Numbered from the stretch's first letter, positions 22,296 to 43,347 are shown. The stretch: DNA of 64,000 nucleotides from a virus (IMGVR_UViG_3300006116_000001:193-64192); one strand, 5' to 3'. Made by a program: numbers and translations. The notes: generated by a model not told the origin, from the sequence alone.

Positions 22296-22489
22296 CCTAC
22301 CGCCGCCTTTTCCTGCGCCCCGACCCATCAACCCCGGACCACGTTCACATTGGCCTAGAGACGCCAACAGGGGCCATCTTCTTCCTCTCCGCACCTTCCC
22401 TACCCCGACCCCGCGCGGAGGCCCTCCTGGCCAAAATTTCGGCCCACAGCACAGTCAACCCCACCCACTGGTCTCAAACTTATGGCTGA
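22292..22489 (+). CDS. Hypothetical early protein
   Basis: ATGA-coupled ORF. Confidence 0.55.
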   Translation: MTYRRLFLRPDPSTPDHVHIGLETPTGAIFFLSAPSLPRPRAEALLAKISAHSTVNPTHWSQTYG

Positions 22490-22922: not shown

Positions 22923-23383
22923 CACCTTGGTCCCCTGAAGAAATTGCCACGCTGCAACGGCTCATCACCAAAGAAGGCAAGTCCTTTGGCGAGTGCGCCA
23001 AGATCCTAAATCGATCACGAAATGCGGTGGCCGGCAAGGCTTACAATTTGCAACTCAAGGCCCCTGACGCTAAACCTATGTTAACAAGGGTTGCAGCTAA
23101 ACCCCGCCTACCATCTAACGCCCGCCACGCCAAGCCCGACGCGCCGCTTTACGTCGCTTCAAGCCTGCCCACGCTCCTCCACAATCCCGACCCGCAGCTC
23201 GCCATCCCAATCATCAACAACGGCCAATGCAAATGGCCGATCGGCGACCCTCAACACCCCACATTCCGCTTCTGCACAAACCAACGCGCCAACGACCACC
23301 AGCCCTACTGCGCAACCCACAACGCTAAAGCCTTCATCAAGCCCAACGTCCCAGCAACCAAACTCAAAACAGGATTTCCCTAA
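22919..23383 (+). CDS. gcrA: GcrA cell-cycle regulator homologue
   Basis: WSPEEIATLQRL...SRNAVAGKAYNL (HTH) and CKWPIGDP...FRFC...PYCATH (Cys-rich domain); ATGA-coupled start at 22919. Confidence 0.9.
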   Translation: MTPWSPEEIATLQRLITKEGKSFGECAKILNRSRNAVAGKAYNLQLKAPDAKPMLTRVAAKPRLPSNARHAKPDAPLYVASSLPTLLHNPDPQLAIPIINNGQCKWPIGDPQHPTFRFCTNQRANDHQPYCATHNAKAFIKPNVPATKLKTGFP

Positions 23384-23829: not shown

Positions 23830-24477
23830 ATGCGCACCGCCCCCGCCTACTCTCCGCCAGTCGCTACGGCCCTTGCCGCGACGTTCATCTCTGTCATAGC
23901 CCTCACCATAGGAGCCGCAACACACATGCCTGCCGTCTCATCCTACGACCCCACGATTGTTGCCGTAGAAGATTGGCAACAGGCCCATCCTCCACGGCCT
24001 CTCACCCAACCCTCTTCCATCCCAAAAATCCCCACCTACGCCCAATACAAGGCCCGCCGCGCCGCGGACCACTTTTTCCTGGCTGCAACTATGTGGGGCG
24101 AGGCCCGCGGTGAGCCAAACCAAACGCAAGCCATGCTGGCCGTGGGCAACACCATCCTCAACCGCCTCAATGCTCCCAATACAGCCCAACGCTCTATCGC
24201 CGGCGTCGTTCTCCGCTCTAAGCAATACAGCTGCTGGAACCCCAAGGACCCTAACCGCCTCCTCTTAACCCGCAGACATCTGGGCTATCTTTCGCCACAA
24301 AGCGCTGACGGTCAGGCCTGGGCCTTGGCCAATGAGTTAGCTGACGGCTTAATTTCAGGAAGGCTTGGCGACACCACCCATGGCGCCACTCACTACCACG
24401 CCACCGCGGTCCACCCCTATTGGGCCACAGCCACTACCCGCCTCTTCCGCCTCGCCCATCAGGTCTTCTATAGGTAG
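23830..24477 (+). CDS. SleB/Hydrolase_2 cell-wall hydrolase with N-terminal membrane/signal segment
   Basis: LAATMWGEARGE, AVGNTILNR, VVLRSKQYSCWN, GATHYHA...PYWA. Confidence 0.88.
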   Translation: MRTAPAYSPPVATALAATFISVIALTIGAATHMPAVSSYDPTIVAVEDWQQAHPPRPLTQPSSIPKIPTYAQYKARRAADHFFLAATMWGEARGEPNQTQAMLAVGNTILNRLNAPNTAQRSIAGVVLRSKQYSCWNPKDPNRLLLTRRHLGYLSPQSADGQAWALANELADGLISGRLGDTTHGATHYHATAVHPYWATATTRLFRLAHQVFYR

Positions 24478-29509: not shown

Positions 29510-29785
29510 CTAGCCTCGACAAGCGTCGATGAGCTTTTCCAGCAGTGAAAGCCGCACGTCGCGCAAGCCCCACCCCTCTTCCAACAATCGCGCACGTTCG
29601 ACGGCGTTGGGCGCGGCTAAAAGGACCGCGGGCGTGTCAGGGTAAGCTGCGGGCGGCGGAAGGTCTTTTGGCACGCACGAGACCGGCAACGGGACGTTGA
29701 CGGTCTGGATCCTGATCGGCGGATCTTGGACCGTGGCGCATGCGCCGAGCGCCAAGCACCCCAAAATGGGGATGATCAACCTCAT
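29510..29785 (-). CDS. Rz1: Outer-membrane spanin (lipoprotein)
   Basis: Lipobox LALGA-C, Pro-rich, last gene of the lysis cassette. Confidence 0.85.
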   Translation of the reverse strand: MRLIIPILGCLALGACATVQDPPIRIQTVNVPLPVSCVPKDLPPPAAYPDTPAVLLAAPNAVERARLLEEGWGLRDVRLSLLEKLIDACRG

Positions 29786-30243
29786 GGCCGCGCTCCTTTC
29801 AGGTAGGCAACAAGGGCCGCGTCAGAGGCTTGAAGCGCCTGACAGTCGTCGCCCGGCGGGACATCGGGCAGGGCCTTGATGGCTTGCCTTAGATCCATGG
29901 CCCGTTGTTGGGCCTGCACATGGCCAGCGACGGCCTTTTCAGCCTTAGCTTGAGCGTCGGCCCCGGCGGAAGAAAGAGCCGCCAGGCGAGCGTTCTGCTG
30001 GGCCAAAGCGTCCATCAGCGTGCGTTGAGCCGCCTCTGCCTTAAGCTGCTTGGCGAGCACGATGTCGCGTTGAGCGGCGAGCGAGGGCGGCAGGTCGTAG
30101 CGCCAGAAAAGAAAATGAACATGGCCCCAGGACGGTTCGCCCTGGGGCCGATGGTCATACCAATAAACGCCCCAACCGCCAAGGATGGCGAGCCAGAACA
30201 CGCCAATGAAGCCTACGACGAATGAGAGCGACTTGACAAACAT
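29782..30243 (-). CDS. Rz: Inner-membrane spanin
   Basis: N-terminal TM helix then Ala/Gln coiled coil; ATG at 30243; precedes the lipoprotein. Confidence 0.75.
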   Translation of the reverse strand: MFVKSLSFVVGFIGVFWLAILGGWGVYWYDHRPQGEPSWGHVHFLFWRYDLPPSLAAQRDIVLAKQLKAEAAQRTLMDALAQQNARLAALSSAGADAQAKAEKAVAGHVQAQQRAMDLRQAIKALPDVPPGDDCQALQASDAALVAYLKGARP

Positions 30244-30247
30244 GATT

Positions 30248-30514
30248 TTACGCCGCCGGGGCTGGTTCTTCAGCCGGAGGCGCGGGGTAGGCGGCGGTGA
30301 GGGCATTGGTCACAACCTCAATACGCGAGGTCAACGACTCAACGGCCGAAGTGTCGCTGGCGGCGACCGCGCGAGCGTGAACCGCCTCAAGGGCGGTGAC
30401 TGCCGCCGTGAGGTCATCAATAGCCTTAGACATAATTTTATTCTCCTCAGTTAACCGAGCCACGTGATTGTGGAGGGCGGCGAGTTCTGCGTTGACGCGT
30501 TCGAGTTCTGTCAT
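30248..30514 (-). CDS. Coiled-coil hypothetical protein in the lysis cassette
   Basis: MTELERVNAEL...; second in-frame start with GAGGAG RBS at 30433. Confidence 0.55.
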   Translation of the reverse strand: MTELERVNAELAALHNHVARLTEENKIMSKAIDDLTAAVTALEAVHARAVAASDTSAVESLTSRIEVVTNALTAAYPAPPAEEPAPAA

Positions 30515-30607
30515 GGCGTTAAAGTCCCCGTCGCCCAAACCGGGGGACGTTGGTGAGGCGACGGGGACCCTGTCCTAGCGGCCCGAGCAGCCAGGACGCC
30601 GGACTCC

Positions 30608-30865
30608 TTAGGCCGCCTTCGGGACCAGCGCCTTGAGCGCCACGGCAAGAATGCCTTGGAGCGTCGAGCTGAGGCTGGTCTTGGTCAGGTCAGCGATGAT
30701 GGCCGTCACGGCCCAGGACCAAAACGCCTCCACGCCCGGAATGAGCGAAAAGTTGTGGGCGTCCTTGGCCAGGTCAGCCGCGATGGTGTTGAGGAACTGC
30801 TCGGGCGAGATCTTGCCCGACTCAAGGTCCTTGACGGTGTCGATGATTTGTGAAACGTCGCTCAT
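30608..30865 (-). CDS. Hypothetical protein in the lysis cassette
   Basis: ATG at 30865 with GAGAG RBS; only this 3' part of track ORF 30608..31456 looks coding. Confidence 0.6.
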   Translation of the reverse strand: MSDVSQIIDTVKDLESGKISPEQFLNTIAADLAKDAHNFSLIPGVEAFWSWAVTAIIADLTKTSLSSTLQGILAVALKALVPKAA

Positions 30866-30942
30866 GGTTGCTGCTCTCGTGTTCAATTGATCGCTGGAGG
30901 GCGCGATCGACCCTACCGGCGGTGCCGGATCTTTGAATAGGT

Positions 30943-31395
30943 CTAGCTGGCCCAAACCCTGATCGAGGTCAGCATTTGTTGCGCTTCGCGCGCCGCTCGC
31001 TTGGGCGTCTGTTTGCGGAACCAATCGCTGTCCAACATCTGGTCGTGGGCCGCCTGCCAATCCTTGGCCTGCATCGCTGCTAGCGCCTTCGGAAAGTCTG
31101 CTAGGCCGTGAATGCCCATCTGGAAAACCATCTGAACCAGAACGTCCTGCCGTTCGTCCGACAACTCCGTCCACCAGGGGTAGTGGACGTTCAGCGCTTG
31201 CGTCGCGTGGTTGATGTCCGAGGCTAAGGCGGCGTTGATCTGGTCGTCCGACCAGACGAGCCCAGGACCAACCTCCGGGCCAGTGTGCCCGACGCCAATG
31301 GTCCAGGGCTCGCCACCAGTCAAGGGGTCGGGGTAGGAACGGCACTCGCGGTTCTCCTCGCACTCGATGTCGTGGGCCAGAAAAGGCGTCGTCAT
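30943..31395 (-). CDS. Endolysin, T4-lysozyme-like (GH24)
   Basis: IECEE...YPDPLTGGEPWTIGVGH (E-x8-D-x-T); VQMVFQMG; MLDSDW...QTPKRA. Confidence 0.9.
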   Translation of the reverse strand: MTTPFLAHDIECEENRECRSYPDPLTGGEPWTIGVGHTGPEVGPGLVWSDDQINAALASDINHATQALNVHYPWWTELSDERQDVLVQMVFQMGIHGLADFPKALAAMQAKDWQAAHDQMLDSDWFRKQTPKRAAREAQQMLTSIRVWAS

Positions 31396-31703
31396 GGCTT
31401 AGCGTTCGCGTTGAGAGGGGTCGAGGGCGAAGGGAGGGCTGCGGCGATAACAGCATCCTTATTCGCGGACGAACGGTTGGAGTTCAGCGAGTTGGCAAGC
31501 CAAAAGCCCGTGACCGCGGCCAGGGCAGCGGTTTCAGCGGAGATGATGGCGCCCAAGATGCCGACCATGACGCTCTCGACCGTGACCTTCATGATCAGCA
31601 GGCCAAAGATGCCGCCGACGGTGAGGTTCCACGTGCCCATCAGCGCGTAGGAGATCAGGGCGACCGCGGACGTCGGCGCGGCGTCGGAAACGTTTTCAGC
31701 CAT
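31392..31703 (-). CDS. Holin
   Basis: Two or three TM segments, charged tail, directly before the endolysin. Confidence 0.7.
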   Translation of the reverse strand: MAENVSDAAPTSAVALISYALMGTWNLTVGGIFGLLIMKVTVESVMVGILGAIISAETAALAAVTGFWLANSLNSNRSSANKDAVIAAALPSPSTPLNANAKP

Positions 31704-32175
31704 CGGCCTTTTTCCTTGGTTGAGAGGGCTTGGTTGTTATGCCGTGGGCGGCAAGAAGCTGCTCCAGGGCGTCGATTCGTTTGTTGAGGCGCGCGTTCTC
31801 TTCCGCCAGGACCTTTTCGCTCTGCCGACACTCGGCGTGCTCTTTTTTGAGCGCAGCGACCTCAGAGTTTAGAGTTCGGACCTGTTGGAAGTAATTCTCG
31901 GCTCGCTCGTTGGCTGTTTCGGCCTTGTCTCGCGCCTCCTTGATCTCCGCGCGCAACTCGTGAAGAAGCTCCTTGCTGGCCTCGGAGATCGAGCTTTGAA
32001 GGTCCGCAAGCGAGGCATTCATTTTTGAAGGCGCGTTGAGGCGGTCGGAGTCGTTCTTGGCTTTGTTTTTCGAGGCTGTCACGTAGATGGTCGTTACGGC
32101 AGCAATCACCCCTCCCACCGCGCTAGCGCCGCTGAGCCTGCCTAATTCTTGCAGGAGTTCTTGACTAGGTAGCAT
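31696..32175 (-). CDS. Membrane-anchored coiled-coil protein (lysis cassette, first gene)
   Basis: Hydrophobic helix SAVGGVIAAVTTIYVTA then a long coiled coil. Confidence 0.6.
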   Translation of the reverse strand: MLPSQELLQELGRLSGASAVGGVIAAVTTIYVTASKNKAKNDSDRLNAPSKMNASLADLQSSISEASKELLHELRAEIKEARDKAETANERAENYFQQVRTLNSEVAALKKEHAECRQSEKVLAEENARLNKRIDALEQLLAAHGITTKPSQPRKKADG

Positions 32176-32321
32176 GGTCGATGGTCCTTGGGGCAGGGTT
32201 GGTTGTCAAATGGCCGTTGTGCGCTGATTTTGAGACGGGGGAGGCGGCCATTAATATTTAATCCATTTAAGCGTTAAACCGCCGCGCATTCAAACTGAAG
32301 CACGTCACTGTTGGCGGGGCG

Positions 32322-34154
32322 TTAATACGCATCGCACATATGAAGGATGACATCCGACGCTGTAGGCGTTCCACTCCACGTCAAGGTGACGCTTGTTGCT
32401 GTAGAGCCCGTTACTTTCGCGGTATTGGTTGACGTCGTTATATCATCAGCTTTGCAATACCATCCATTAGCCGCTGCGGAGAACGTCAGCGTCTCTGTGG
32501 TCCCGGTGGGAGACACGCCGACCACGGCTTTAAACACGTGAGAGCCGCCTCCTGTGATTGTCGGAAACGTACCTATAGCTTGCCCCGAAGTTATGGCGGG
32601 GGTGCTTGAGTAGTTTCTGTAGACGTTTTCGACGTTTATTTCGCCGACAGATGAAGAGGATACCGGCTCTACGGTCTTAGCGCCGGATCCGATAAAAACG
32701 GCTCCAGATCCTGTAAAAGTTGTTTGAAGTATGCCATGTCCAAAAACTGAATTGTTAGCTGCTGTGGTGGCCACATAAAGCGACCGGGCGCCGACGACGG
32801 TATTGTTTCCCGATCCGGTTGACAGTCCGTTTCCGGCCCAGAAGCCGACGACTACGTCATCGGATTGCGTCGTCATGTTTGGAGCGGCAATTCCTCCGAC
32901 AATGGTATTTGTAGACCCCGTTGTAACTGCCGTCCCTGCGTTAATTCCCATATAAACATCATACTGCCCAGTAGTTGTTGCATATCCCGCTCCGGTTCCA
33001 GTTGCTGTGTCTCCAAAACCATTTTGAACGGAATTTAATGCATTGAAACCTATGGCAGTTATAGAGTTCCCGCCGATAGTGCTGCATGCGCTATCGCCAA
33101 TACACGTTGCATTTTGAATTAATGAAGCAGTCGGATAAGCAGCAGCAAACGCTCCCACAATCGTGCCGCCTTGAAATTGAGTTCCGTTTATCAAAGCCGC
33201 AGAAAGTGTATTAGAGCCGCCCGTTCCTTGCGCGGTGCTTGCCGAAGGTGTCAATTGCCAGCCGACAGATTGCGTCCCTGGCCAAGCCAATTGCAAAAGA
33301 TAACCTGACGATTGAAGGTTAATCGCGCCGCACGAAACTTGATAAGACGGGCCTTGAATTTGTTTGCTATTCAAATTTGAGCAGAGAGTGTTTGCTATTG
33401 AAGCAAGGGTATCGCCACCTTGCACTGTGTAGGTGTAAGAATAGGGAAGGTTCGTGACAATTGTAGATCCGCCATTAGTCAAACCTAAAGTTACCGTGTT
33501 ACCGGCCGTAATTGTTCCAGTCAAAAGAACGGCGCTGGAATAACCTTGTCCGGCCGTTTGACCAATAAAAATCCCGCGACTGTTATTGCCGTGCGCTCCA
33601 GCGCCTTGGCCAACGGCTGTTACAGACCCCCCATTTGTGATCGCATCTCGAAGTGCGTCATTCCCGATAGCCACGTTGTTGTTTGCTACGGTTTCCGATC
33701 CAAGAGCGTGCATACCAAACGCAGTGTCCAGGGATCCTGTCGTCAAAAATTGACAACTTAAAGCGCCTGTACAAGTTGTTTCCGCTCCGAGAGCCGTATA
33801 GTTTGCAAGCGAATAAGATCCAATGCCGATACTTGGAAATTGATCCGTTCCCGAAGTTGGAAATTTTGAGCCTGATCCGATACCCCAAAACTGAGACGAA
33901 ACGTTGATCGCGGGCGAACCATAAGTTTGAGACGTCAGCGGTCCTGAAAAAATTGGCGCCGATCCAGCAACAACAGTCGGCCCGGTCAAAGTGCCGGTGA
34001 ACGTGGGATTGTTGGCCATAATGCCGCCGCCGGCTTTGACGATGGCCTGGGCGTTTTGAGTATAGGTCTGGCCCAGGGCCGCGGCTCCCAGGTTCAGGAA
34101 CACCGCCAACAGCATGAGAGATCTTCTAAGCACTGGCGGTGTCCTTTTTATCAT
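32322..34154 (-). CDS. Fibre/adhesin-like protein with signal peptide (SP-fibre 3); likely true start GTG at 34133
   Basis: MLRRSLMLLAVFLNLGAAALG|Q; YadA-head-like 14-aa repeats; 8 Cys in the mature part. Confidence 0.7.
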   Translation of the reverse strand: MIKRTPPVLRRSLMLLAVFLNLGAAALGQTYTQNAQAIVKAGGGIMANNPTFTGTLTGPTVVAGSAPIFSGPLTSQTYGSPAINVSSQFWGIGSGSKFPTSGTDQFPSIGIGSYSLANYTALGAETTCTGALSCQFLTTGSLDTAFGMHALGSETVANNNVAIGNDALRDAITNGGSVTAVGQGAGAHGNNSRGIFIGQTAGQGYSSAVLLTGTITAGNTVTLGLTNGGSTIVTNLPYSYTYTVQGGDTLASIANTLCSNLNSKQIQGPSYQVSCGAINLQSSGYLLQLAWPGTQSVGWQLTPSASTAQGTGGSNTLSAALINGTQFQGGTIVGAFAAAYPTASLIQNATCIGDSACSTIGGNSITAIGFNALNSVQNGFGDTATGTGAGYATTTGQYDVYMGINAGTAVTTGSTNTIVGGIAAPNMTTQSDDVVVGFWAGNGLSTGSGNNTVVGARSLYVATTAANNSVFGHGILQTTFTGSGAVFIGSGAKTVEPVSSSSVGEINVENVYRNYSSTPAITSGQAIGTFPTITGGGSHVFKAVVGVSPTGTTETLTFSAAANGWYCKADDITTSTNTAKVTGSTATSVTLTWSGTPTASDVILHMCDAY

Positions 34155-34386
34155 CCGAGATCATACGCAACCAGGCTTGGTGGCAGTGGTCGGGTTGCTT
34201 GAAGAACGTCAGCGCGCCCCAGTTGACGAGCGCCATGGCGAGAGGCCAAACGCCACCCTTGGGCTGGTTGGCCCAGATGCGCGCGCTAATTGTCCAATGA
34301 GGGTCGCCGCCTATTAAGGCGTTGGCAAACTCGTCTAGCGCGACCAACACTTGCTTAGCCTCGCCGTCTGCGTTGCCGGCGGTCAC
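34126..34386 (-). CDS. Conserved small phage protein
   Basis: ALDEFANALIGGDPHWTISAR...DHC motif, typical of small genes near tail fibres. Confidence 0.6.
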   Translation of the reverse strand: MTAGNADGEAKQVLVALDEFANALIGGDPHWTISARIWANQPKGGVWPLAMALVNWGALTFFKQPDHCHQAWLRMISDDKKDTASA

Positions 34387-34387
34387 G

Positions 34388-34729
34388 TTAGGAGCCCGAC
34401 GACTGTGAGCTAGAGGACGTCGAGGATGCGCTAGAGGCCGACACGATAGTCGCCGGGTCCACCCAAGGCGTCGCTTGCTTCGCGTTGACTTGGCTTTGCA
34501 GTGTCTTCACCGACCCAATGTACGCATACCAGGCGCTCGCAAGGCTTTGCAGGCCGGCGATCGTGTCGGGGTCCTGAGCCTGAGCAACCGCCGTCTGTAG
34601 CAGGCCAACGGCTTGCGCGATGGTGGTTGTGGGGCTTGAGAAGCTGTCGGCGAAGGCTTTAACGAGCGGAAAGTCGTTGGCGGCGGCTCCCTGGATCAGG
34701 GCGAACTCTTGTTGGGCGATGGTGGTCAT
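34388..34729 (-). CDS. Hypothetical protein
   Basis: 113-aa ORF, AGGAG RBS, Ser-rich tail. Confidence 0.65.
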   Translation of the reverse strand: MTTIAQQEFALIQGAAANDFPLVKAFADSFSSPTTTIAQAVGLLQTAVAQAQDPDTIAGLQSLASAWYAYIGSVKTLQSQVNAKQATPWVDPATIVSASSASSTSSSSQSSGS

Positions 34730-34738
34730 GCTGCGCTC

Positions 34739-35947
34739 CTAGTAGGCAAAGGCCGTGTAGACGATCACGTCTGACGCCGCCGTGGTTCCAGTTAAGGTGC
34801 AAGACGTGGTTGAGTTGGCTGATTGCTTTAGCGTGTCGGCAATCGTGGTCTGGTCTTGCGCTTGACAAACCCAGCCGTTTGGAGCCGTGGTTTTGAAGGT
34901 CATGATGACGGTCTGAGCCGTACAGGTCGCAGTGAAAGACCCCGCCGATGCGCCGCCAAGCTGCGAGCCCGTCGTACAGGTTCCGCTAAGCGTTGGTTTC
35001 GTGCCGGCAAGCGTCAGAGATCCATCCGCGCCGCTCATCGTCACGCCGTTGGCTAGCGCGTTCTGTGACGTGCCGGTGGTGCCAGCGGGCGCGTATTGCA
35101 GGACAATAGACCCCCCCGCCCCAGTCCCAGTGCCCTGCGATCCTGCGATAACGAAGTTAGCCCCCGCCGTGTTTGACGTCCCAGCGACAACGCCTTGAAC
35201 GCCAAGGGTTTGGGAGACGGGGGAGGCGGCGTCGGCTGCTCCGAGGTGAAGGGTGGCGGAAGCCGCTGACGTCAGCTTGCCGCCCGTGCCGATGTTGGCG
35301 ACCGCCGCCTGTACCGTCCCACTTTTATCCGCCTGCGTCCCATTGCCGACGTCTACGACCCCTGCGGAGTCGCGGGAGAGGCCGGTGTCGGTAGACCCGG
35401 TTAAATTTGCTGTCGATTGCCAGTTAACAGTCTGACCAGAACTTAAAAGTAAACCAGCGCCATTACCAATAAGTTCAGAGACGCTTTGTCCCGAAGAATT
35501 TAGTAACACTAAAGACCCTGGCGCTCCGTTGCTGCCTATTGTGAGGCCGCTCCCCCCAGGTTTCGACAGCGACATAAACGAAACGCCGCCAACCTGTATA
35601 TCCATTAATTCAGAAGCCGCCCCGCTCGCCGTATTTGTCACATTCATAAACAGCGGCGCATCAAACGTGATTCCGCTATTATTCCACGTCTGCGTAATAT
35701 TCAGAGACTTGTAGTTCGCGGTTTGGCTTCCGCTCGCCACCGTCAACGACGTCCCATCCGTCGTCACCCCGGATGCGCTGGAACACCCCGAAGACCCGTT
35801 GTTATAGACGAGCTGGCCGCTGCTGCCGGAGACGGTGCAGCCGGAGCCGCCGCCAGAGGGCGGGGTCGGGATTTGAGCCTGAACAGCTTGAGGCGCAGGC
35901 AGAAGAAAAGCGAGGGCCGCGACCGCGGCTAGAAGACGTTTGATCAT
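34739..35947 (-). CDS. Fibre-like protein with signal peptide (SP-fibre 2)
   Basis: MIKRLLAAVAALAFLLPAPQAVQA|Q; Gly/Ser/Thr-rich; C-terminal domain paralogous to 32322; 6 Cys. Confidence 0.75.
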   Translation of the reverse strand: MIKRLLAAVAALAFLLPAPQAVQAQIPTPPSGGGSGCTVSGSSGQLVYNNGSSGCSSASGVTTDGTSLTVASGSQTANYKSLNITQTWNNSGITFDAPLFMNVTNTASGAASELMDIQVGGVSFMSLSKPGGSGLTIGSNGAPGSLVLLNSSGQSVSELIGNGAGLLLSSGQTVNWQSTANLTGSTDTGLSRDSAGVVDVGNGTQADKSGTVQAAVANIGTGGKLTSAASATLHLGAADAASPVSQTLGVQGVVAGTSNTAGANFVIAGSQGTGTGAGGSIVLQYAPAGTTGTSQNALANGVTMSGADGSLTLAGTKPTLSGTCTTGSQLGGASAGSFTATCTAQTVIMTFKTTAPNGWVCQAQDQTTIADTLKQSANSTTSCTLTGTTAASDVIVYTAFAY

Positions 35948-36324
35948 GAATAGAAGCTCACGTTGACGATGGCGCCAGCGGTGACGGCGATGAACTTGAT
36001 CGCCGCCATTTCAGCCGCGCCTCCTAAAGGCAAAACGGTGCCGGCGGCCAATAGCATGCCGACCGTGGTCGTTGGGTTGGTCCCGTCATCTCGATAACGT
36101 ACCGATTGCGCTTCAATGATAATCACGCAATAGGTCGCGCCAGTCGGAATGGTCCCCAAGCCAACCGCCGAGCTGGTCGCGGTGATCTGACTATAGCCCA
36201 AGGGTGTGGCGCTGTAAGGCGCGCCGCCGCTGCCGTTAGTGAAGGCCGTTCCGGCGGCGTTGACCAGGCGAACCGGGATCGCCCCGCTGGGGACCGTTTG
36301 GTCGTTAGAAACGGGTTGGGTCAT
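35944..36324 (-). CDS. Small beta-rich virion-type protein
   Basis: 126-aa ORF coupled to the next gene. Confidence 0.6.
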   Translation of the reverse strand: MTQPVSNDQTVPSGAIPVRLVNAAGTAFTNGSGGAPYSATPLGYSQITATSSAVGLGTIPTGATYCVIIIEAQSVRYRDDGTNPTTTVGMLLAAGTVLPLGGAAEMAAIKFIAVTAGAIVNVSFYS

Positions 36325-36387
36325 CTATGGCGAGCTTTCTAGCTTTTGACTAGGATTAAACTAATTTGGAGACGGGAGAGGCGGCCA

Positions 36388-37596
36388 TTAGTGAGCCGCC
36401 CACGCGTATGTGCCGCCGCTCGATCGACACAAGGCAAGCGTTCCAACGTTAGAGCCCCCGGTTAACGCTCCGTTATAGCTTGGCGCGGTGGCGTCGGTGA
36501 CGAAGGCGATCTTGCCCGCATAGGTCGAGTTGCACGTTGGAAGCGTGGCGACGGTGTAGGAGGCAAGCTGGACGCTTTGAGCCTTTTCGTTGCCTGAGCC
36601 GTCGACACTAAAGCTGGGCGAGGCAAACGCGTAATTAGAGAACGCGTAGCCTCTAAGATCAACGCCGTTAGCAATAGTGTCGCCTAAAGACCCGCCAAGC
36701 ACGCCAGCATGCGACCAAGTGCTGATCAGAGAGCCTGTCGCGCGAATTGAATTATAACCCGCGTAAGAACCAAAGCAGAAACCGCAATCCCAGCCTTTGT
36801 CGTATGTCGCCGCATCATTGCCGTTGACCGTGATGGCCGCATTCTCTGTGTAGCCGTTGACGTTGTTAGAAGCGCCAGCGGTTCCAACTTGAAGCCCGAT
36901 CAACTGAGAGACGCTAGAGCCTGTATAAGCTCCCACGTCGATCTCTTCGCCGACACACTGCGCCCAATAGGTCGCGCCCGACAAGACAATGCACTGAGGG
37001 TTAGAGCCAAAGAGGCCGCCCTGAGGCGTGGTCGCCGTGCCGCCTTCGCTGGCCTGCGTGAGGGCTTGAAACCAGCCGGCGGTGTAAGACGCGTTAACTC
37101 CGTTTCCAGTGGTGGAGTTGAGCGCAATAATGCCTTGGACCGCAATTCGCGAACCTGTGACGTTAGAGCCACCGACGTTCAACGCCTCGCGTATTCCCGA
37201 CATATTGGCTCCTTTAGTGGAGCCGTTGTCGTAGTGGGTTAAATCAAGGCCAAAGGCGTTTTGAGTAGATCCGGGCGTTCCAGAAAATCCTGAGTATTGA
37301 AAAAACGGGGAATATGTTGAAAGCGCACCGCTGCCCCATGTACCGCTTGGGGCAAGAATTATGTTTGAAAATTCACCTGTTGCAGCCCCGCCAAGAGCTG
37401 TTCCTATAGCGGTCCCATTAATCGTCCCCCCAGTGATAGCCACCGAAGAGGCGTTCTGTTGGGCCATAGTTCCGCCGCCGGCCGCGACGATCTTCTGCGC
37501 CTGGCACTGGAAGTTGCAGGTCTGGGATATGGCGGATGAGGCAAGGCCCATTAGGCAGAGGCTCAGGGCAAAAAAGCAAAAAGAGCGAAACATCAT
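36388..37596 (-). CDS. Fibre-like protein with signal peptide (SP-fibre 1)
   Basis: MMFRSFCFFALSLCLMGLASSAIS|Q; fibre-type C-terminus YTVATLPTC...FVTDATAP...C...W; 8 Cys in the mature part. Confidence 0.7.
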   Translation of the reverse strand: MMFRSFCFFALSLCLMGLASSAISQTCNFQCQAQKIVAAGGGTMAQQNASSVAITGGTINGTAIGTALGGAATGEFSNIILAPSGTWGSGALSTYSPFFQYSGFSGTPGSTQNAFGLDLTHYDNGSTKGANMSGIREALNVGGSNVTGSRIAVQGIIALNSTTGNGVNASYTAGWFQALTQASEGGTATTPQGGLFGSNPQCIVLSGATYWAQCVGEEIDVGAYTGSSVSQLIGLQVGTAGASNNVNGYTENAAITVNGNDAATYDKGWDCGFCFGSYAGYNSIRATGSLISTWSHAGVLGGSLGDTIANGVDLRGYAFSNYAFASPSFSVDGSGNEKAQSVQLASYTVATLPTCNSTYAGKIAFVTDATAPSYNGALTGGSNVGTLALCRSSGGTYAWAAH

Positions 37597-40229
37597 GACA
37601 GTCCTGTGTAGCCCGGACGCTTTGTGATCATGGCCTGAAGATTGCCTGCCGTCAGCGATTGGCTAGAGCCCGTCCCATTATAGAACGTATATTGGATTGT
37701 GTTCGTCGCGGACACATAGGCGGTGAGAAGGCAACCCTTGAGGTCTTGCGAGTAGGACGGCGACACGATGTCCCCGAGGGCCGCGCCCCGCACGAAAATA
37801 GAACCAAGTTGGTAGGACGAGCCAGACGTAATAGTCCCCGGCGTTGCGGCGGTGACGGGAGATGAAAGGACGGGGCCGATAAAGCCGTCAGAATTGGCCC
37901 CTAACAAATTTGTTGTGCCGGTTTTGTTTCCGTCGAGAACATTTCCGCTAAAGACGTTGTCAAGCACGCCAGAACCAGAAACATTGTATTCAGCAATGCC
38001 ATATTGCTGCGTGGGCGAACCCTGACTGTCGGTGCAAACGTTGCCCGTCACGGCGCAGTGCTGCGCCGCGTAGCTGGGAATGGAGTAAAGGGTGATTCCG
38101 CTGCCGTTGAGCTGGCCGTTGTTGAGACAGAAATTATTTCCGCAAGAGATGTACGGCGCGCCCAGCGAGATACCGTGCCCCGAGTTTGAATAGCAGACGT
38201 TGCCGGTGATCGAGGTGTAAGCCGCCCAACATTCAATGCCGGACGGAAAGGTTGTGTTGATGTCGAGGCCAGTGCCGGCGGCGCAATAATTGTCGGAGAT
38301 GATAGTGAGCAAGGCGCCCACATTGGGACCGATGGCAATGCCACCGCCGAAGTAGGTGCCCGAGATATAATTGTTGGTGATAATGCCGCCTGAACCGTTG
38401 CTAAAGATGCCGGTTCCAATGCAAGTGCAACCCGAGATCTCGTAACCGGTGTCCGGCCCCAGCGCATTCGAGACGTTGATCGCCTGGTTGTAGCGGTTGG
38501 AGGGCGAGGGCATGTTGAAGTAGCAGCGCCGGATCGCCCAGTTGTTGCCCTCGTCCACCGCGAGCCCGATGGTCTGTTGCTGGATCCCGGTGAAGCGGCA
38601 ATTTTCCACGGTCCAGTTGGAGCAGTTTACAAACTGCAGCGCGGCGTAGACGTTGCCGGGCGTGCCGGTGGCGGTGATGGTCTCCGAGCTGATCGGCGAG
38701 CCCTGCGCGATGCCCAGGTTGTAGGTGCCGGTGCCGCCGGCGCCGGTGCCAAGGGACAGGATAAATTGCCCTGTCGCGACGCCCGCGCCCGAAATCGGCT
38801 GACCGACGGCCAGGGAGCCGCTAGTCACCGCAGTGACCGTCATCACCGGCGCGGTGGCGCCCGAAATGTAGCCGGCGCCCGTCTGACCGGCGGTGATCGA
38901 CGCCGTCACGACTGCGACGCTGGGCGTTGAGAAGATGCCGGCGCTGATGTCGAAGGTGAGCCCGATCGTGCGCGAATTGTTGGAATTCGCCATCGCCACG
39001 ACCGACCCGTAATTTGTGCCTGTCGAGAACGATTGCGCCAGCGCCTTGATGATCGTGCTTTGCGGATCCTCGCCGATCCAGTCGCAGCCGTTCCGAGTGA
39101 CCGTCGTGTTGCTGATGCCGTAGGTGTAGGCGGGGAAATAGAGGGCCTTGCCGGCGGCTGTAGCAGCGGTATCGGCGGTGTTGATGATCGACGTCCAGTC
39201 AGCGCCAGACGCGGGCGGGGACGTGCCGGCGAAGTCCCACACGGACATGACGTCAGCTAGCTTTGAAGGAGCGGTGCGCGCTGCGGCCCCTGTAGCGCCT
39301 GACAAGTATTGCAGGGCGGTTAGGGCGGCGGTCGCTGTGGTTGCGCCTGTGCCCCCGTTTGCAAGGCCAAGCGTGCCTGTAACGTTGCTAAAATTAGCAT
39401 TTGCTACGTTAGCTATGTTTAACGTACCAAATGCGATGATGTCTATCAGGTCGTTAGCTGTGGCGCCGGTTTTCAAGACAACCGTCGCGCCGTCAGTTGC
39501 GGTATAGCTAGTCGTCTCTTGCAAAACGCCGTTTTGAAAGACCTCGACAAAGCCAACATTGTAAGCGGCGCTGAAGATCGTCTGACCGCTCGTCGCCGTA
39601 TAGGTCGTCCGCGTAAAGGTCGGGCTGGGCGTGACGACGCTGGTCGAGGTGTTGTAGGCGATGATTTCCAAATAATCACCAGCGGTCAGCCCGCCGCTAA
39701 AAACGACGTTATAACCGTTAGTGGCCGTGTAGGCCGGCGCGGGGACGAGCGTGCCGTTGTTGTAGACCTCTAGCTGGCCTGGCGTATAGGTGGCCCCAAA
39801 GGTCGTTTGGCCTGACGTCGCCGTATAAGCCGTCCGAGTGAAAAACGCCGTTCCCCCGCCGCCTCCGCCGCCCGTGCCAATGGCCGAGGTCGGCACCTTA
39901 ACCGCCGCGCCAGCTTGAATGATGGTCACAAGCTCTGTGCCTGCCAAGGGCGTGACGCCCGAGGGCAGGTCTGAGACAAGGTTGGCAAACGCGCCCGTCG
40001 ACGTGTTGCTGAGGTCCGTCATCGCCGCGCCGTTTTGCACGGCGATCAGGCCGACGGCCGCAGCCGGCGTGCTGCCTGCGGCATAGTAGGTTAAATTGGT
40101 CAGCAGCGGCGCGCAGTTGGCGAAGTTTTGATCAAGCAAAGCAAGGCTAAGCGTCGGCCCTGCAGGAGGGACGATGCTTGGGTTGCCGCCTGAGCTGAAG
40201 GTGTTTGAGTTAGGGAGGCCTGTGGTCAT
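37593..40229 (-). CDS. Tailspike/receptor-binding protein with right-handed beta-helix (pectate-lyase-like)
   Basis: Two RTxYTATSGQTxF repeats, then SVWDF...D.T..IN.A...GKALYFP entry motif and ISDNYC/ITGNVC/VTGNVC beta-helix rungs. Confidence 0.8.
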   Translation of the reverse strand: MTTGLPNSNTFSSGGNPSIVPPAGPTLSLALLDQNFANCAPLLTNLTYYAAGSTPAAAVGLIAVQNGAAMTDLSNTSTGAFANLVSDLPSGVTPLAGTELVTIIQAGAAVKVPTSAIGTGGGGGGGTAFFTRTAYTATSGQTTFGATYTPGQLEVYNNGTLVPAPAYTATNGYNVVFSGGLTAGDYLEIIAYNTSTSVVTPSPTFTRTTYTATSGQTIFSAAYNVGFVEVFQNGVLQETTSYTATDGATVVLKTGATANDLIDIIAFGTLNIANVANANFSNVTGTLGLANGGTGATTATAALTALQYLSGATGAAARTAPSKLADVMSVWDFAGTSPPASGADWTSIINTADTAATAAGKALYFPAYTYGISNTTVTRNGCDWIGEDPQSTIIKALAQSFSTGTNYGSVVAMANSNNSRTIGLTFDISAGIFSTPSVAVVTASITAGQTGAGYISGATAPVMTVTAVTSGSLAVGQPISGAGVATGQFILSLGTGAGGTGTYNLGIAQGSPISSETITATGTPGNVYAALQFVNCSNWTVENCRFTGIQQQTIGLAVDEGNNWAIRRCYFNMPSPSNRYNQAINVSNALGPDTGYEISGCTCIGTGIFSNGSGGIITNNYISGTYFGGGIAIGPNVGALLTIISDNYCAAGTGLDINTTFPSGIECWAAYTSITGNVCYSNSGHGISLGAPYISCGNNFCLNNGQLNGSGITLYSIPSYAAQHCAVTGNVCTDSQGSPTQQYGIAEYNVSGSGVLDNVFSGNVLDGNKTGTTNLLGANSDGFIGPVLSSPVTAATPGTITSGSSYQLGSIFVRGAALGDIVSPSYSQDLKGCLLTAYVSATNTIQYTFYNGTGSSQSLTAGNLQAMITKRPGYTGLS

Positions 40230-40230
40230 G

Positions 40231-41079
40231 CTAGGTCTTGATCAAGAACATGACAGCAAGGTTGATCGGGCGCGTTTCATTTCCGTAGGGCACAGCGCCA
40301 TTGGTGCCGTCGTTCACCGGCTCGCCGGTCGCAACGACTGGGGCAGAAACGTTGGTGCCGGTAGACCCGGTGAAGCCGTTGCCGGTCGTGCTAGCCGGCA
40401 GCACGCCCGCTGAACCGTTGAGCGGGTGAATGTGGCCCTGCATCTGTTGACCCTGCGTCGAACCAAGCGAACGACCGCTGTCGACCGTAGAGCCATGGGA
40501 CCAGCCGCGGGGGAAATAGCCGCGGAAGTCAGGGACATTAAACGTGGCGCCTGAACCGCCGTAGGTGTAGCCAATCACCGCAAACAAGGCGGCATAGGTC
40601 GTCGTCGAGACGCCCGCGCCGTTACATTCAAGATAACCGGTCGGAGGGGAACTGGCCGCATACATGATGATGCTGGCCGTAGGAACGAGGTTCGCGGAGC
40701 TGGCGGGCGTATAGCCCAGCGCCGTCGTGACCATCGAGCCCGTCAGCGTGCTGCCGAGGTCTTGGACCTGCAGAGCTTGAGCCGCCTGACCCGCGCTCCA
40801 CTGGTTGGCAAAATAGTCGCCGCTTAGCCAAGAGACGGCCGTCGTGCCTTCTTGACCTCGAACGACGGTTAGGCTGTCGCCGCTGATCGCTGTTACCTTG
40901 ACGATTTCGCGCACTAGGCCTGTGGCCGCGTCGTTCAGCGTGCCAATGAAATACTGGCTTCCGGTCAAAGACGGGAAGAGAGCGCCTGAGCCGGTGGTGA
41001 GCGCGATCGTCGTCGCTGTGTTCGTGATGGACGAAGCGAGCGTCGTGCTGGCGTTATTTGCAAATTGACACGTGGTAAT
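40231..41079 (-). CDS. Tail fibre with collar domain; probable non-canonical ATT start at 41079
   Basis: Frame open upstream of the track start (FANNASTTLASSI...); collar motif PTASIIMYAASSPPTGYLECNG...YAALFAVIG...FNVPDFRGYFPRG. Confidence 0.8.
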   Translation of the reverse strand: MTTCQFANNASTTLASSITNTATTIALTTGSGALFPSLTGSQYFIGTLNDAATGLVREIVKVTAISGDSLTVVRGQEGTTAVSWLSGDYFANQWSAGQAAQALQVQDLGSTLTGSMVTTALGYTPASSANLVPTASIIMYAASSPPTGYLECNGAGVSTTTYAALFAVIGYTYGGSGATFNVPDFRGYFPRGWSHGSTVDSGRSLGSTQGQQMQGHIHPLNGSAGVLPASTTGNGFTGSTGTNVSAPVVATGEPVNDGTNGAVPYGNETRPINLAVMFLIKT

Positions 41080-41922: not shown

Positions 41923-43347
41923 TTAGCCCTGGTTCACGGTGATGAGGCCAACGTTGGTTTGAAAATAGCTCTGCGGGTCGCCAGCGATGATGCCTGTGCC
42001 GCTGGTCGGCGAGACGCCCACGCCGTTGATGCTGACGGAGAACACGAGGCGCGTGAGCAGCGCATTGGGAATAATGTTCGCGGTCGCAGCCTGAAAAGTT
42101 GCCTGAAGCTCAAAAACGTTGATTGGCTGACCAACCGTGATTGAGTTGATGTAGGCGACGATGGCCGGTTGAGCCGCCTGAGCGATCGAGGCTGGAGCTA
42201 CAGTGTTGGGAGAGATGGTGTTCCACGTCACCGTCATGGAGACGGTTTGCTGCGGCGGGTTGACAAACTGAATGGTGTAGGTGTCGGGATAATCGATCAG
42301 GTTGACTGAGATATTGCGCGTGTTGGGCGTGACAACGCCCCCGGAGACGTAAGAGCCAAAACCAGTCGTGTTGACGCCAAAGCTGAAGGTCGTCGGCGTG
42401 AGGACCGTTACGGTGTAACCTGTCCCGTTGGCCCCGGTCATGCCGGTGACGCCCGAGATCGCCACGCCGGTTTGGCCGGTCGTGAAGCCGTGGTTGATGG
42501 CCGTCGTCACGACGCCGGGGTTGGCGTTAGTGATGCCGGTAATGGTCGTGACCGAGGGTTGCAGGTTCGAGATGTCAAACAGCGCGCAAAAGATGGCGTA
42601 AGCCACGGCGTAAGGGTCACCACCGCCGCAGATGACGAGCCAACCGGGCGATTGCTGAATGACGTTGATGAGGCGCGTTTGAACGCCCGGCACCTGCCCG
42701 AGCAAAGTCGTCAAAAATGAAGGGAAGCCCGTTGCGGCCGCCAGGCCCGCTTTCAGCGTCCGCGCCCTATAGCTCGCCTCGGTCTCGCCTCCAGTGGAAG
42801 GGACGCCCGTCACCGGGTTGGTGACGCTAAGCGAGATGGTCGTCGGAACGCTCGTGACGAGCTGTGTTACAGAGCCGACCGGAACGCCGAATGAGCCAGA
42901 GGTCGTCGAGACAGCGTAGAGCTGCGCCGACGAACCGCTGGCCGCGATCGCGCCGCCGTCTTGAATAACATATTGATTGGTGCCGTCAGAGACGATGAAG
43001 CCGGCTGGAATGACGAAGCCGATAGTGCCAGTGAAAACGACGTAGACTGAGGTGTTGACCGTCTGGCCTAGTGCGGTGCCGTAGATTTGGCCAAGCTGAT
43101 AGAGCGTAAAAGCGTTGGCCGCGTAGGGCGTCAACGAGTTAATAGCCTCAGTGACAGCCTGGTCGGATTGAACGACAGCGCCCGTCGCCGTGGAAGCCAG
43201 GTCTTCGATCAAAAGGCCAGGAAGGCTGGCCGTGAGACCAGGAGACAAGGTCTGTGCAAGGGCGATCACCTGCGCCAACAGCGTTGACGGCGGCGTGTTG
43301 GTGCGCCCTGCGCTCGTCAGCGAGATGGGGATTGAGGTGTCAGCCAT
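41923..43347 (-). CDS. Baseplate J-like protein with inserted beta-domain
   Basis: V.FTGTIGFVIPAG, VTNP...GGETEASYRAR. Confidence 0.85.
   Translation of the reverse strand: MADTSIPISLTSAGRTNTPPSTLLAQVIALAQTLSPGLTASLPGLLIEDLASTATGAVVQSDQAVTEAINSLTPYAANAFTLYQLGQIYGTALGQTVNTSVYVVFTGTIGFVIPAGFIVSDGTNQYVIQDGGAIAASGSSAQLYAVSTTSGSFGVPVGSVTQLVTSVPTTISLSVTNPVTGVPSTGGETEASYRARTLKAGLAAATGFPSFLTTLLGQVPGVQTRLINVIQQSPGWLVICGGGDPYAVAYAIFCALFDISNLQPSVTTITGITNANPGVVTTAINHGFTTGQTGVAISGVTGMTGANGTGYTVTVLTPTTFSFGVNTTGFGSYVSGGVVTPNTRNISVNLIDYPDTYTIQFVNPPQQTVSMTVTWNTISPNTVAPASIAQAAQPAIVAYINSITVGQPINVFELQATFQAATANIIPNALLTRLVFSVSINGVGVSPTSGTGIIAGDPQSYFQTNVGLITVNQG

What the first reader, a model, noticed from the sequence alone, without database searches (positions are those of the whole stretch)
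32322..37596. Three tail-fibre-like proteins with Sec signal peptides and paired cysteines
Inside the tail-fibre module, ORFs 36388, 34739 and 32322 each begin with a classical signal peptide (basic n-region, hydrophobic core, A-x-S/A/G cleavage site) followed by Gln at +1. Their mature parts have 8, 6 and 8 Cys, mostly in close pairs, consistent with periplasmic disulphide formation. 36388 and 32322 share the mature N-terminus QT...AQxIVxAGGGxMA. 34739 and 32322 share a C-terminal domain (NGWxCxAxDxTT...SDV...AY). Virions assemble in the cytoplasm, so exported fibres imply something unusual: fibres folded in the periplasm and attached at or after lysis, receptor-blocking decoys, or surface adhesins. 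The neighbouring ordinary fibre and tailspike have no signal peptide.
Basis: partly seen in the sequence, partly recalled or inferred. Interest (0 to 1): 0.85.

Follow-up and report, generated by a model that had tools for sequence, protein, structure and literature searches.

The report
Phage fibre-like proteins carrying export signals
A complete 64-kb freshwater phage encodes, between its ordinary tail fibres and its lysis genes, three fibre-like proteins that start with a secretion signal and carry paired cysteines, so they almost certainly fold outside the cytoplasm, which is not described for tail-fibre proteins of tailed phages.

Summary
ORFs 36388-37596 (A), 34739-35947 (B) and 32322-34154 (C), all on the minus strand, begin with Sec-type signal peptides ending in a small-x-small|Gln site. 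Their mature parts hold 8, 6 and 8 cysteines in neighbouring pairs.

Export is supported by tests on homologues:
- In B's family, signal-bearing members have six times more cysteine than the others (p=2e-9).
- B's and C's shared C-terminal domain occurs only in signal-bearing proteins (12 of 12).
- In A's family, cysteines covary only as neighbouring pairs, and 60 of 69 signal-bearing members have an even number.
- 89 of 117 signal-bearing homologues keep Gln at +1.

A is modelled as an intertwined homotrimer.

The three genes lack the N-terminal docking domain that the fibres of this phage lineage share. They have no counterpart in 38 related loci, and their GC3 is lower than their neighbours'.

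Best reading (0.5): they are acquired, exported, disulphide-bonded fibre-like trimers that act on the host envelope and are not docked on the baseplate. Attachment to virions after lysis remains possible (about 0.2).

This scan has noted signal peptides on phage fibres before, on other DNA. I found no paper describing them.

The parts
36388..37596 (-). Gene A, 402 aa: signal peptide (residues 1-24, nt 37525-37596), then a fibre/tailspike-like body with 4 cysteine pairs.
   Evidence: ORF and sequence. ATGA overlap with the upstream spike. Homologues: 22 by word search and 959 by HMMER, about half of them signal-bearing. Homotrimer model of residues 90-402: ipSAE 0.90 against a best control of 0.00.
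34739..35947 (-). Gene B, 402 aa: signal peptide (residues 1-24, nt 35876-35947), a conserved central fibre domain, and a C-terminal four-cysteine tip domain.
   Evidence: ATGA overlap with the 126-aa ORF.
32322..34154 (-). Gene C, 610 aa: signal peptide (residues 1-28, nt 34071-34154; or from GTG at residue 8), a repetitive fibre body, and the same tip domain as B. GC3 is 0.46.
   Evidence: PHROG 'virion structural protein' hits at 5e-10.
37459..37524 (-). Mature N-terminal motif of A (QTCNFQCQAQKIVAAGGGTMAQ), shared with C.
   Evidence: Direct repeat D3, 77% over 39 nt. Aligns with the LGTMAxQNA..ITGG motif of ordinary fibres.
34011..34070 (-). Mature N-terminal motif of C (QTYTQNAQAIVKAGGGIMAN), shared with A.
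34739..35026 (-). C-terminal tip domain of B (motif NGW-C).
   Evidence: Found in 13 proteins; 12 of the 12 complete ones carry a signal peptide. AF2 pLDDT 80-89. Its four cysteines occur in none of about 60 non-signal rows.
32322..32609 (-). C-terminal tip domain of C, homologous to that of B.
   Evidence: phmmer E=3.5e-8.
35944..36324 (-). 126-aa ORF between A and B, no signal peptide, native GC3 (0.72). A possible partner or chaperone of B.
   Evidence: Weak N-terminal likeness to the 134-aa ORF that precedes the signal-bearing fibre in L005.
34388..34729 (-). 113-aa helical ORF between B and C, no signal peptide.
34126..34386 (-). 86-aa ORF (phrog_3342) that overlaps the start of C.
37593..40229 (-). 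878-aa tailspike-like protein without a signal peptide; translationally coupled to A.
40231..40968 (-). Collar-domain tail fibre without a signal peptide. Its N-terminal ~70 aa is the docking domain repeated on every fibre of related phages.
   Evidence: PF07484 at 1.5e-20. tblastn against relatives.
29510..32175 (-). Lysis cassette directly downstream: membrane proteins, lysozyme (30943-31395), i-spanin and o-spanin lipoprotein.
36361..36390 (-). 30-nt element beginning at A's stop codon. A second copy lies at 32224-32253, between C and the lysis genes.
   Evidence: Direct repeat D2, 90% identical. Sequences read.

Best explanation
A, B and C are horizontally acquired, tail-fibre-like homotrimeric proteins in which a Sec signal peptide takes the place of the N-terminal module that ordinary family members use to dock on a virion.

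Proposed course of events:
1. They are made late, from the same operon as the tail genes. The starts of A and B are translationally coupled to the upstream genes.
2. They are exported unfolded through SecYEG and cut by signal peptidase I in front of a conserved Gln.
3. They fold and trimerise in the periplasm, with disulphide bonds between neighbouring cysteines.
4. They then act outside the cytoplasm as free proteins, not docked on the baseplate, and bind or cut envelope glycans of the alphaproteobacterial host. The most likely use is to mask or destroy the phage's own receptor, so that superinfecting phages and newly released progeny are not lost on infected cells and debris. They are set free at lysis as stable extracellular proteins.

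Shown by computation here: the signal-peptide features, their conservation, the cysteine statistics, the modelled trimer, the lack of the lineage's anchor domain, and the foreign composition.

Inferred: actual export and cleavage, absence from the virion, and the glycan or receptor target.
For: Export:
1. In B's family, 15 of 119 homologues carry a signal peptide. They hold 1.33 Cys per 100 aa against 0.21 in the others (Mann-Whitney p=2e-9). None of the 15 lacks cysteine, whereas 44 of the 104 others do.
2. The tip domain of B and C occurs only in signal-bearing proteins, 12 of 12. Its cysteines are absent from all of about 60 non-signal rows.
3. In A's family there are 959 HMMER hits. Of the best 149, 70 are signal-bearing by a strict rule, and 60 of the 69 that have cysteines have an even number (binomial p=2e-10).
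4. Cysteines covary only as neighbours: 202-214 (p=2e-6), 271-274 (p=4e-12), 355-390 (p=5e-9). Non-neighbour pairs give p>0.18.
5. 89 of 117 signal-bearing homologues have a small-x-small|Gln site, against a Gln background of 3.5%. Selection on that position makes sense only if the peptide is cut there.

Trimeric fibre: three copies of A(90-402) score ipSAE 0.90 against a best control of 0.00. The three runs agree in at least 82% of contacts and the partner's pLDDT is at least 85. That mark was reached by 20 of 30 proteins solved as pairs and 1 of 23 solved as single chains. Weak fold hits go to tailspikes, pyocin fibres and HylP. For C, the ESM Atlas's own model has structural neighbours that are viral S74 fibres, TM about 0.55.

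Not part of the lineage's virion plan:
- 38 related loci found through baseplate J hold no homologue of A, B or C, and about 20 with enough downstream DNA hold no large signal-bearing fibre.
- Their 2-3 fibres each begin with the ~70-aa N-domain of the window's collar fibre, which A, B and C lack.
- GC3 is 0.61, 0.65 and 0.46 for A, B and C, against 0.72-0.75 for the neighbouring and interspersed genes.

Recurrent module: runs of signal-bearing fibre-like and small proteins lie at the end of the late operon, or after the MuF gene, in unrelated myo- and podophage contigs L001, L002, L004-L006 and L046.

Lifestyle and host: the genome is complete with direct terminal repeats and has no PF00589 or PF00239 match. 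It carries GcrA (2e-20).

Precedents for exported tailspike- or fibre-like trimers that act on envelope glycans: WceF (PMC7949094) and Bdellovibrio MAT fibres (PMC10769870).
Against: - The genes sit where virion fibre genes sit, and A and B are translationally coupled to structural genes. They have no promoter or terminator of their own of the kind typical of accessory 'moron' genes (one search found nothing above the shuffled expectation).
- A and C share a mature N-terminal motif that could be a docking peptide.
- A periplasmic soluble protein has no evident route to surface glycans before lysis. No outer-membrane translocator or anchor was found.
- No catalytic site or glycan-binding site was identified. 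The nearly invariant E218 of A is only a lead.
- No experiment, virion proteome or cultured relative exists.
- The signal-peptide calls rest on my own rule, not on a trained predictor.
Confidence: 0.5

Rival explanations
1. They are true virion receptor-binding proteins. They are exported so that they can fold oxidatively in the periplasm. They attach to finished particles only once holin lesions join cytoplasm and periplasm, or after lysis. This would give the phage extra, disulphide-stabilised fibres, branching from the spike, the collar fibre or an adaptor.
For: - Position in the tail-fibre module and translational coupling to the spike.
- A and C share a mature N-terminal motif, also visible at DNA level, as co-docking fibres often do.
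- Small non-exported ORFs lie between the genes, like fibre adaptors or chaperones.
- Family members without a signal peptide are ordinary fibres.
- The endolysin has no SAR segment. By established lysis biology that implies a large-hole holin, which would let particles meet periplasmic proteins.
- As a lead only: earlier notes of this scan report whole distal tails with signal peptides in other uncultured phages.
Against: - A, B and C lack the N-terminal anchor shared by all fibres of this lineage, and have no counterpart in 38 related loci.
- Their composition is foreign.
- The phage already has a complete fibre and spike set without signal peptides.
- The shared motif of A and C is a general fibre motif that lies internally in ordinary fibres.
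- No tailed phage is known to assemble this way (my knowledge; searches).
Confidence: 0.22
2. They are exported periplasmic helpers of lysis or egress. They bind or cut capsule, exopolysaccharide, S-layer anchor or peptidoglycan-linked polymers from within, so that the envelope falls apart and progeny escape the matrix. They do not serve in receptor masking.
For: - They lie directly upstream of the lysis cassette, in this phage and in L001 and L002.
- C has a weak LysM-like stretch (E=0.018).
- A has weak likeness to HylP-type and depolymerase folds and a nearly invariant Glu.
Against: - In L004-L006 the module lies in the head region, far from lysis genes.
- No enzyme family match passes any threshold.
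- The modular, swapped tips look like specificity determinants rather than conserved enzymes.
Confidence: 0.13
3. The hydrophobic N-termini do not work as export signals. Either translation starts further downstream, for example at the Met of GGGxMA in A and C, or the helix stays uncleaved as part of a cytoplasmic fibre.
For: - Public gene callers started A at M132.
- A and C have an in-frame Met about 20 residues after the predicted cleavage site, preceded by GGCGG.
- No trained predictor or experiment was available.
Against: - The signal-cysteine coupling, the even cysteine counts, the neighbour-pair covariation, the conserved Gln at +1 and the tip domain restricted to signal-bearing proteins are all unexplained if the peptide is not used.
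- B has no nearby internal start.
- The Met of GGGxMA is a conserved internal residue of ordinary fibres.
- The starts of A and B overlap upstream stops.
Confidence: 0.07
4. They are adhesins displayed on the surface of the infected or lysogenic cell, like Bdellovibrio MAT fibres or trimeric autotransporters. They would change the host's adhesion or aggregation.
For: Signal peptide plus fibre plus variable tip is the MAT design. Some distant homologues of C are bacterial surface proteins with T9SS sorting domains.
Against: - The genome is complete and holds no integrase or resolvase, so the phage is probably virulent.
- No beta-barrel anchor, T9SS domain, lipobox or MAT-type N-domain was found.
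- The genes lie in the late operon.
Confidence: 0.05

Closest known systems
Ordinary phage tail fibres and tailspikes with swapped modules (the signal-free members of B's and A's families; P22-, CBA120- and HylP-type trimers)
   Same: Homologous central domains: 640 and 959 hits. Modelled intertwined homotrimer. Mosaic exchange of N- and C-terminal modules. Position in the late operon.
   Different: A cleavable signal peptide stands where the virion-docking module should be. The bodies carry paired cysteines. The tip domain occurs only in signal-bearing members. The anchor domain of the lineage is absent.
Bdellovibrio bacteriovorus MAT (mosaic adhesive trimer) fibres, Caulton et al. 2024, PMC10769870
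   Same: Signal peptide, phage-fibre-like trimer, variable C-terminal tips with disulphides, and folding outside the cytoplasm.
   Different: MATs are chromosomal genes of a predator. They share a conserved ~130-aa N-domain after the signal peptide, and many have an S74 chaperone. A, B and C are phage late genes, share at most about 20 residues after the signal peptide, and have no S74 domain.
Pantoea stewartii WceF, an exported tailspike-like exopolysaccharide hydrolase, PMC7949094
   Same: A tailspike-like trimer sent out of the cytoplasm to act on the cell's own envelope glycan.
   Different: WceF uses a Tat signal, is a bacterial gene within an exopolysaccharide cluster, and keeps a P22-like head domain. 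A, B and C have Sec-type signals with no conserved twin arginine, and show no sequence likeness to WceF.
Phage receptor-blocking lipoproteins beside receptor-binding-protein genes (T5 Llp, phi80/T1 Cor); from my knowledge, not tested here
   Same: Exported phage proteins encoded next to host-recognition genes. They protect against superinfection and against loss of progeny on debris.
   Different: Those are lipoproteins of about 60-80 aa that block an outer-membrane protein. These are 400-600-aa fibre-like trimers with type I signal peptides.
Signal peptides on phage genes of unknown function in Porphyromonas phages (Matrishin et al. 2023, PMC10367356)
   Same: Phage genes with SPase I signals that expose an N-terminal Gln, read by the authors as envelope modifiers.
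   Different: No tail fibres are named there. The host is a Bacteroidota, where Gln at +1 is the rule. Here the host is inferred to be an alphaproteobacterium (GcrA).

Membership tests
Sec / signal peptidase I substrates | Basic n-region, uncharged hydrophobic core of 7-15 residues, small residues at -3 and -1. | tested here: met
   All three N-termini fit. Only 5 of 96 ORFs of the phage pass the same rule. No trained predictor was available.
Sec / signal peptidase I substrates | The feature is conserved in homologues although its sequence is not. | tested here: met
   By the rule, 15 of 22 A-type hits carry a signal; inspection adds P0128 and P0147. The four nearest C-type hits all carry one. 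70 of 149 HMMER representatives carry one. 89 of 117 signal-bearing homologues have AxA|Q.
Sec / signal peptidase I substrates | Actual translocation and cleavage. | not testable with these tools
   Needs reporter fusions or N-terminal mass spectrometry.
Lipoprotein (SPase II) or Tat substrates | Lipobox with Cys at +1, or a conserved twin-arginine motif. | tested here: not met
   No lipobox in A, B or C. C has RR, but its homologues P0145, P0146 and P0148 do not.
Periplasmic disulphide-bonded proteins | Even number of cysteines that appear and disappear in pairs, enriched in exported members. | tested here: met
   (figures given in the For line).
Virion tail fibre or tailspike of this phage lineage | N-terminal docking domain shared by the lineage's fibres. 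| tested here: not met
   The ~70-aa N-domain of the collar fibre recurs 2-3 times per related locus and is absent from A, B and C.
Virion tail fibre or tailspike of this phage lineage | Trimeric fibrous or beta-helical body homologous to known fibres. | tested here: met
   Trimer model of A scores 0.90 against a control of 0.00. Signal-free homologues have ordinary fibre N-termini. PHROG 'virion structural protein' hits for C.
Virion tail fibre or tailspike of this phage lineage | Presence in purified particles. | not testable with these tools
   The phage is uncultured and no cultured phage holds a homologue.
Bdellovibrio MAT fibres | Conserved ~130-aa beta-rich N-domain directly after the signal peptide. 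| tested here: not met
   A and C share only about 20 residues after the signal, and B shares none. No direct comparison with MAT sequences was made.
Trimeric autotransporter adhesins | C-terminal YadA-type beta-barrel anchor. | tested here: not met
   No such Pfam hit. The C-termini are small beta-sandwich tips.
Polysaccharide depolymerase (tailspike or HylP type) | Recognisable catalytic domain or catalytic residues. | tested here: inconclusive
   Only weak fold and feature hits. There is a nearly invariant Glu218 in A's family. No hit in the PDB by sequence profile.

The most novel reading that the evidence does not exclude
The three proteins are real parts of the infectious particle. This myovirus would build head, tail and baseplate in the cytoplasm, while part of its host-recognition apparatus is exported, oxidatively folded in the periplasm, and added only when the holin joins the two compartments or after lysis. 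That would be a two-compartment assembly route not described for any tailed phage.
Probability: 0.2. Interest if true: 0.9.

Novelty: new variant of a known kind. Interest (0 to 1): 0.62.

Why it matters
Textbook assembly of tailed phages is entirely cytoplasmic. Tail-fibre homologues are routinely annotated as virion parts and used to predict host range.

Here a large, recurrent class of fibre homologues carries a working-looking export signal in place of the docking module. About half of 149 representatives of A's family do so, and so do many unrelated phage contigs.

- If they are free exported proteins, phages have a widespread and unstudied way of acting on the host envelope late in infection: receptor masking or destruction, matrix cutting, or exclusion. 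Host-range predictions that count every fibre gene would then be inflated.
- If they join the virion, assembly spans two compartments.

Either way, they are a source of naturally disulphide-stabilised glycan-binding trimers.

Tried and rejected
- Pfam gave nothing above threshold for A, B or C. PHROGs gave nothing for A and B, and only 'virion structural protein' hits (down to 5e-10) for C.
- Foldseek against the PDB gave only weak hits for the B and A monomer models, E >= 0.05. The monomer models are poor (pLDDT 68) because the chains intertwine.
- The PDB sequence-profile search for A's family gave no real hit.
- ESM Atlas gave only viral 'hypothetical' neighbours below the reliable score.
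- Cultured phages: blastn and tblastn with A, B and C gave only marginal partial hits, to MW202444 and Burkholderia phage Bm1. No virion proteome can therefore be borrowed.
- The search for related loci with the alignments failed because no conserved stretch was available. With B alone on genome contigs it gave one irrelevant partial hit. On viral contigs it gave six partial hits that I did not use.
- Sequencing runs: nine freshwater metagenome runs hold the stretch and no RNA holder is listed. Laying contigs of three runs showed the same sequence with low, fragmented cover in two of them and no variants. This gives no evidence on expression or on cassette variability.
- The promoter and terminator scan found nothing above the shuffled expectation.
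- I considered the Bacteroidetes Q-rule as a host clue and rejected it. GcrA points to an alphaproteobacterial host.
- I considered that the 126-aa ORF is homologous to the small signal-bearing proteins beside such fibres in other phages. BLAST support is too weak.

Full report
WHAT IS THERE

The window is nearly the whole of a complete 64,192-bp virus record with direct terminal repeats. It comes from freshwater metagenomes.

The record is a contractile-tailed phage. It has a sheath, a baseplate J protein, a collar-domain fibre, a portal and a major capsid protein. It has its own family A polymerase and primase-helicase. It has a GcrA homologue at 2e-20, which by established knowledge points to an alphaproteobacterial host. 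It has no tyrosine or serine recombinase, so it is probably virulent.

The late operon runs on the minus strand in this order:
- baseplate J (41923-43347);
- a 275-aa protein;
- the collar fibre (40231-40968);
- an 878-aa spike (37593-40229);
- A (36388-37596);
- a 126-aa ORF;
- B (34739-35947);
- ORFs of 113 and 86 aa;
- C (32322-34154);
- the lysis cassette, with lysozyme at 30943-31395 and spanins at 29510-30306.

A, B and C begin with a basic n-region, an uncharged hydrophobic core and a small-x-small site followed by Gln.

The mature parts hold 8, 6 and 8 cysteines, nearly all in close pairs.

A and C share the mature N-terminus, which is also visible as a 39-nt DNA repeat. B and C share a C-terminal domain (phmmer 3.5e-8).

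Only five of 96 ORFs of the phage pass the same signal-peptide rule. The other two are the o-spanin lipoprotein and a cell-wall hydrolase.

The starts are sound. The ATGs of A and B overlap the stop codons of the upstream genes. The shorter public call for A (271 aa) is wrong, because residues 41-65 align with a conserved fibre motif in homologues.

IS THE SIGNAL USED?

No predictor or experiment was at hand, so I tested consequences of export on homologues.

1. B has 640 homologues. Of the best 119, 15 carry a signal peptide. The rest start with ordinary fibre N-termini.
   - The signal-bearing ones have 1.33 Cys per 100 residues against 0.21 (p=2e-9).
   - None of them lacks cysteine, while 44 of the 104 others do.
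2. The tip domain of B and C is found in 13 proteins. All 12 complete ones carry a signal peptide. Its four cysteines never occur in rows without a signal.
3. An exhaustive HMMER search with A found 959 relatives.
   - Of the best 149 representatives, 70 pass the strict rule, and a dozen more look like signal peptides by eye.
   - 60 of the 69 signal-bearing ones that have cysteines have an even number (p=2e-10).
4. In that alignment, cysteines covary only as neighbours: 202-214, 271-274 and 355-390, with p from 2e-6 to 4e-12. All other combinations give p>0.18. This is the pattern expected of disulphides.
5. 89 of 117 signal-bearing homologues keep Gln right after a -3/-1 site, against a Gln background of 3.5%. 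A conserved residue at the junction of two otherwise unconserved segments is hard to explain unless the chain is cut there.

Together these make export and oxidative folding very likely (about 0.85-0.9), although none of them is a measurement.

WHAT KIND OF PROTEIN?

The monomer models are poor. B has pLDDT 68 with a confident C-terminal sandwich. A has pLDDT 68 with a confident C-terminal domain.

Three copies of A(90-402) give a confident intertwined trimer. The score is ipSAE 0.90 against a best control of 0.00. The runs agree in at least 82% of contacts, and the partner's pLDDT is at least 85. That mark was reached by 20 of 30 proteins solved as pairs and by 1 of 23 solved as single chains. 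The model supports a homotrimer but does not show it.

Weak fold neighbours are tailspikes, R-pyocin fibres and the triple-stranded HylP. The structural neighbours of the ESM Atlas's own model of C are viral S74-type fibres.

So these are fibre- or tailspike-like trimers with exchangeable ends. The central domain of A occurs elsewhere with the B/C-type tip, as in P0122 and P0142.

ARE THEY PART OF THIS VIRION?

I fetched 38 related loci through baseplate J, at 43-60% identity.
- None encodes a homologue of A, B or C.
- None of about 20 loci with enough downstream DNA encodes a large signal-bearing fibre.
- Each relative has two or three fibre genes that all begin with the ~70-residue N-domain of the window's collar fibre. 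This is evidently the docking module of the lineage. A, B and C lack it and carry the signal peptide in its place.

Their GC3 values (0.61, 0.65 and 0.46) also set them apart from the neighbouring and even the interspersed genes (0.72-0.75). They therefore look like three acquired modules.

THE SAME MODULE ELSEWHERE

Signal-bearing homologues sit in unrelated phage contigs:
- L001, an SU10-like podophage, has five consecutive signal-bearing genes between a signal-free fibre and the lysozyme.
- L002 has four in a row before its lysis genes.
- L046 has one at the end of the structural block.
- L004-L006, three E217/Pa193-like myophages, have a small protein plus a signal-bearing fibre right after the MuF gene.

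Earlier notes of this scan describe signal peptides on phage fibres in many other genomes. I treat these as leads, not as support. They pointed me to two papers that I read.
- Bdellovibrio MAT fibres are exported phage-like trimers with disulphide-bearing tips (PMC10769870).
- Matrishin et al. report signal peptides with Gln at +1 on unknown Porphyromonas phage genes (PMC10367356).

I also found WceF, a Tat-exported tailspike-like exopolysaccharide hydrolase (PMC7949094). Four literature searches found no description of exported tail-fibre proteins in tailed phages.

HOW IT MOST LIKELY WORKS

Best reading (0.5): late synthesis, Sec export, cleavage before Gln, and periplasmic folding into disulphide-bonded trimers. 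The trimers then act as free proteins on envelope glycans of the host. The most plausible use is masking or destroying the receptor, to the benefit of progeny and against superinfection. The proteins are released at lysis.

The steps up to folding are supported by the statistics above. The non-virion status rests on the missing anchor, the absence from relatives and the foreign composition. The target is inferred from what fibre tips do.

Rivals:
- Late attachment to virions (0.22). This is physically possible once holin lesions join the compartments.
- A role in lysis or egress (0.13).
- The signal is not used (0.07).
- Surface adhesin (0.05).

VERDICT

The feature is real and well supported. 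The exported state is likely and the use is open. It is a new variant of known kinds, namely phage fibres and exported fibre-like trimers. This scan has seen it repeatedly on other DNA, and I did not find it in print.

Noticed in passing
window 36361-36390 and 32224-32253 (weak third copy at 35206-35235): A 30-nt element (minus strand: TAATGGCCGCCTC-CCCGTCTC-AAAT-AG), 90% identical between two copies. One copy starts at A's stop codon, 37 nt before the 126-aa ORF. The other lies 69 nt after C and 49 nt before the first lysis-cassette gene. It could be a late regulatory site or a recombination scar at module borders.
   Followed up: partly
window 32322-37596: GC3 of A, B and C is 0.61, 0.65 and 0.46. 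The small ORFs between them and the flanking fibre and spike have 0.72-0.75. The three signal-bearing genes therefore look like separate insertions into a native backbone.
   Followed up: yes
L008-L045 (relatives found through baseplate J), e.g. L043 at 12232, 14004 and 14655: Each related phage carries two or three fibre genes that all start with the same ~70-aa N-domain as the window's collar fibre. This is a clear multi-fibre docking design. In the window, only the collar fibre has that domain.
   Followed up: partly
window 23830-24477 (+): A second cell-wall hydrolase (PF07486, 1e-14) has a hydrophobic, signal- or SAR-like N-terminus. It lies in the early/middle region, far from the lysis cassette, which has its own lysozyme.
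   Followed up: no
window 36388-37596: Public gene calls start gene A at Met132 (271 aa). That would leave about 390 nt uncalled and hide the signal peptide. Surveys based on such calls will undercount signal-bearing fibres.
   Followed up: yes
L002 7524-9362: A 612-aa protein with 11 cysteines starts MLRRVALGLLLLAAACSG. This is a possible lipobox, so some members of these clusters may be lipoproteins.
   Followed up: no
window 33357-33431 (C residues 242-266): A LysM-like start, YTVQGGDTLASIAN (E=0.018, below the Pfam cut-off). The cysteine pair 258/275 starts inside it and ends nine residues beyond.
   Followed up: no
window 22482-23383 (+): A receiver-less OmpR/CtrA-type DNA-binding domain (PF00486, 2e-8) overlaps the start of a GcrA homologue (PF07750, 2e-20).
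   Followed up: partly
window 34126-34386: The 86-aa ORF matches phrog_3342 (2e-13), of unknown function. Its end overlaps the start of C by 8 or 29 nt, depending on which start C uses.
   Followed up: no
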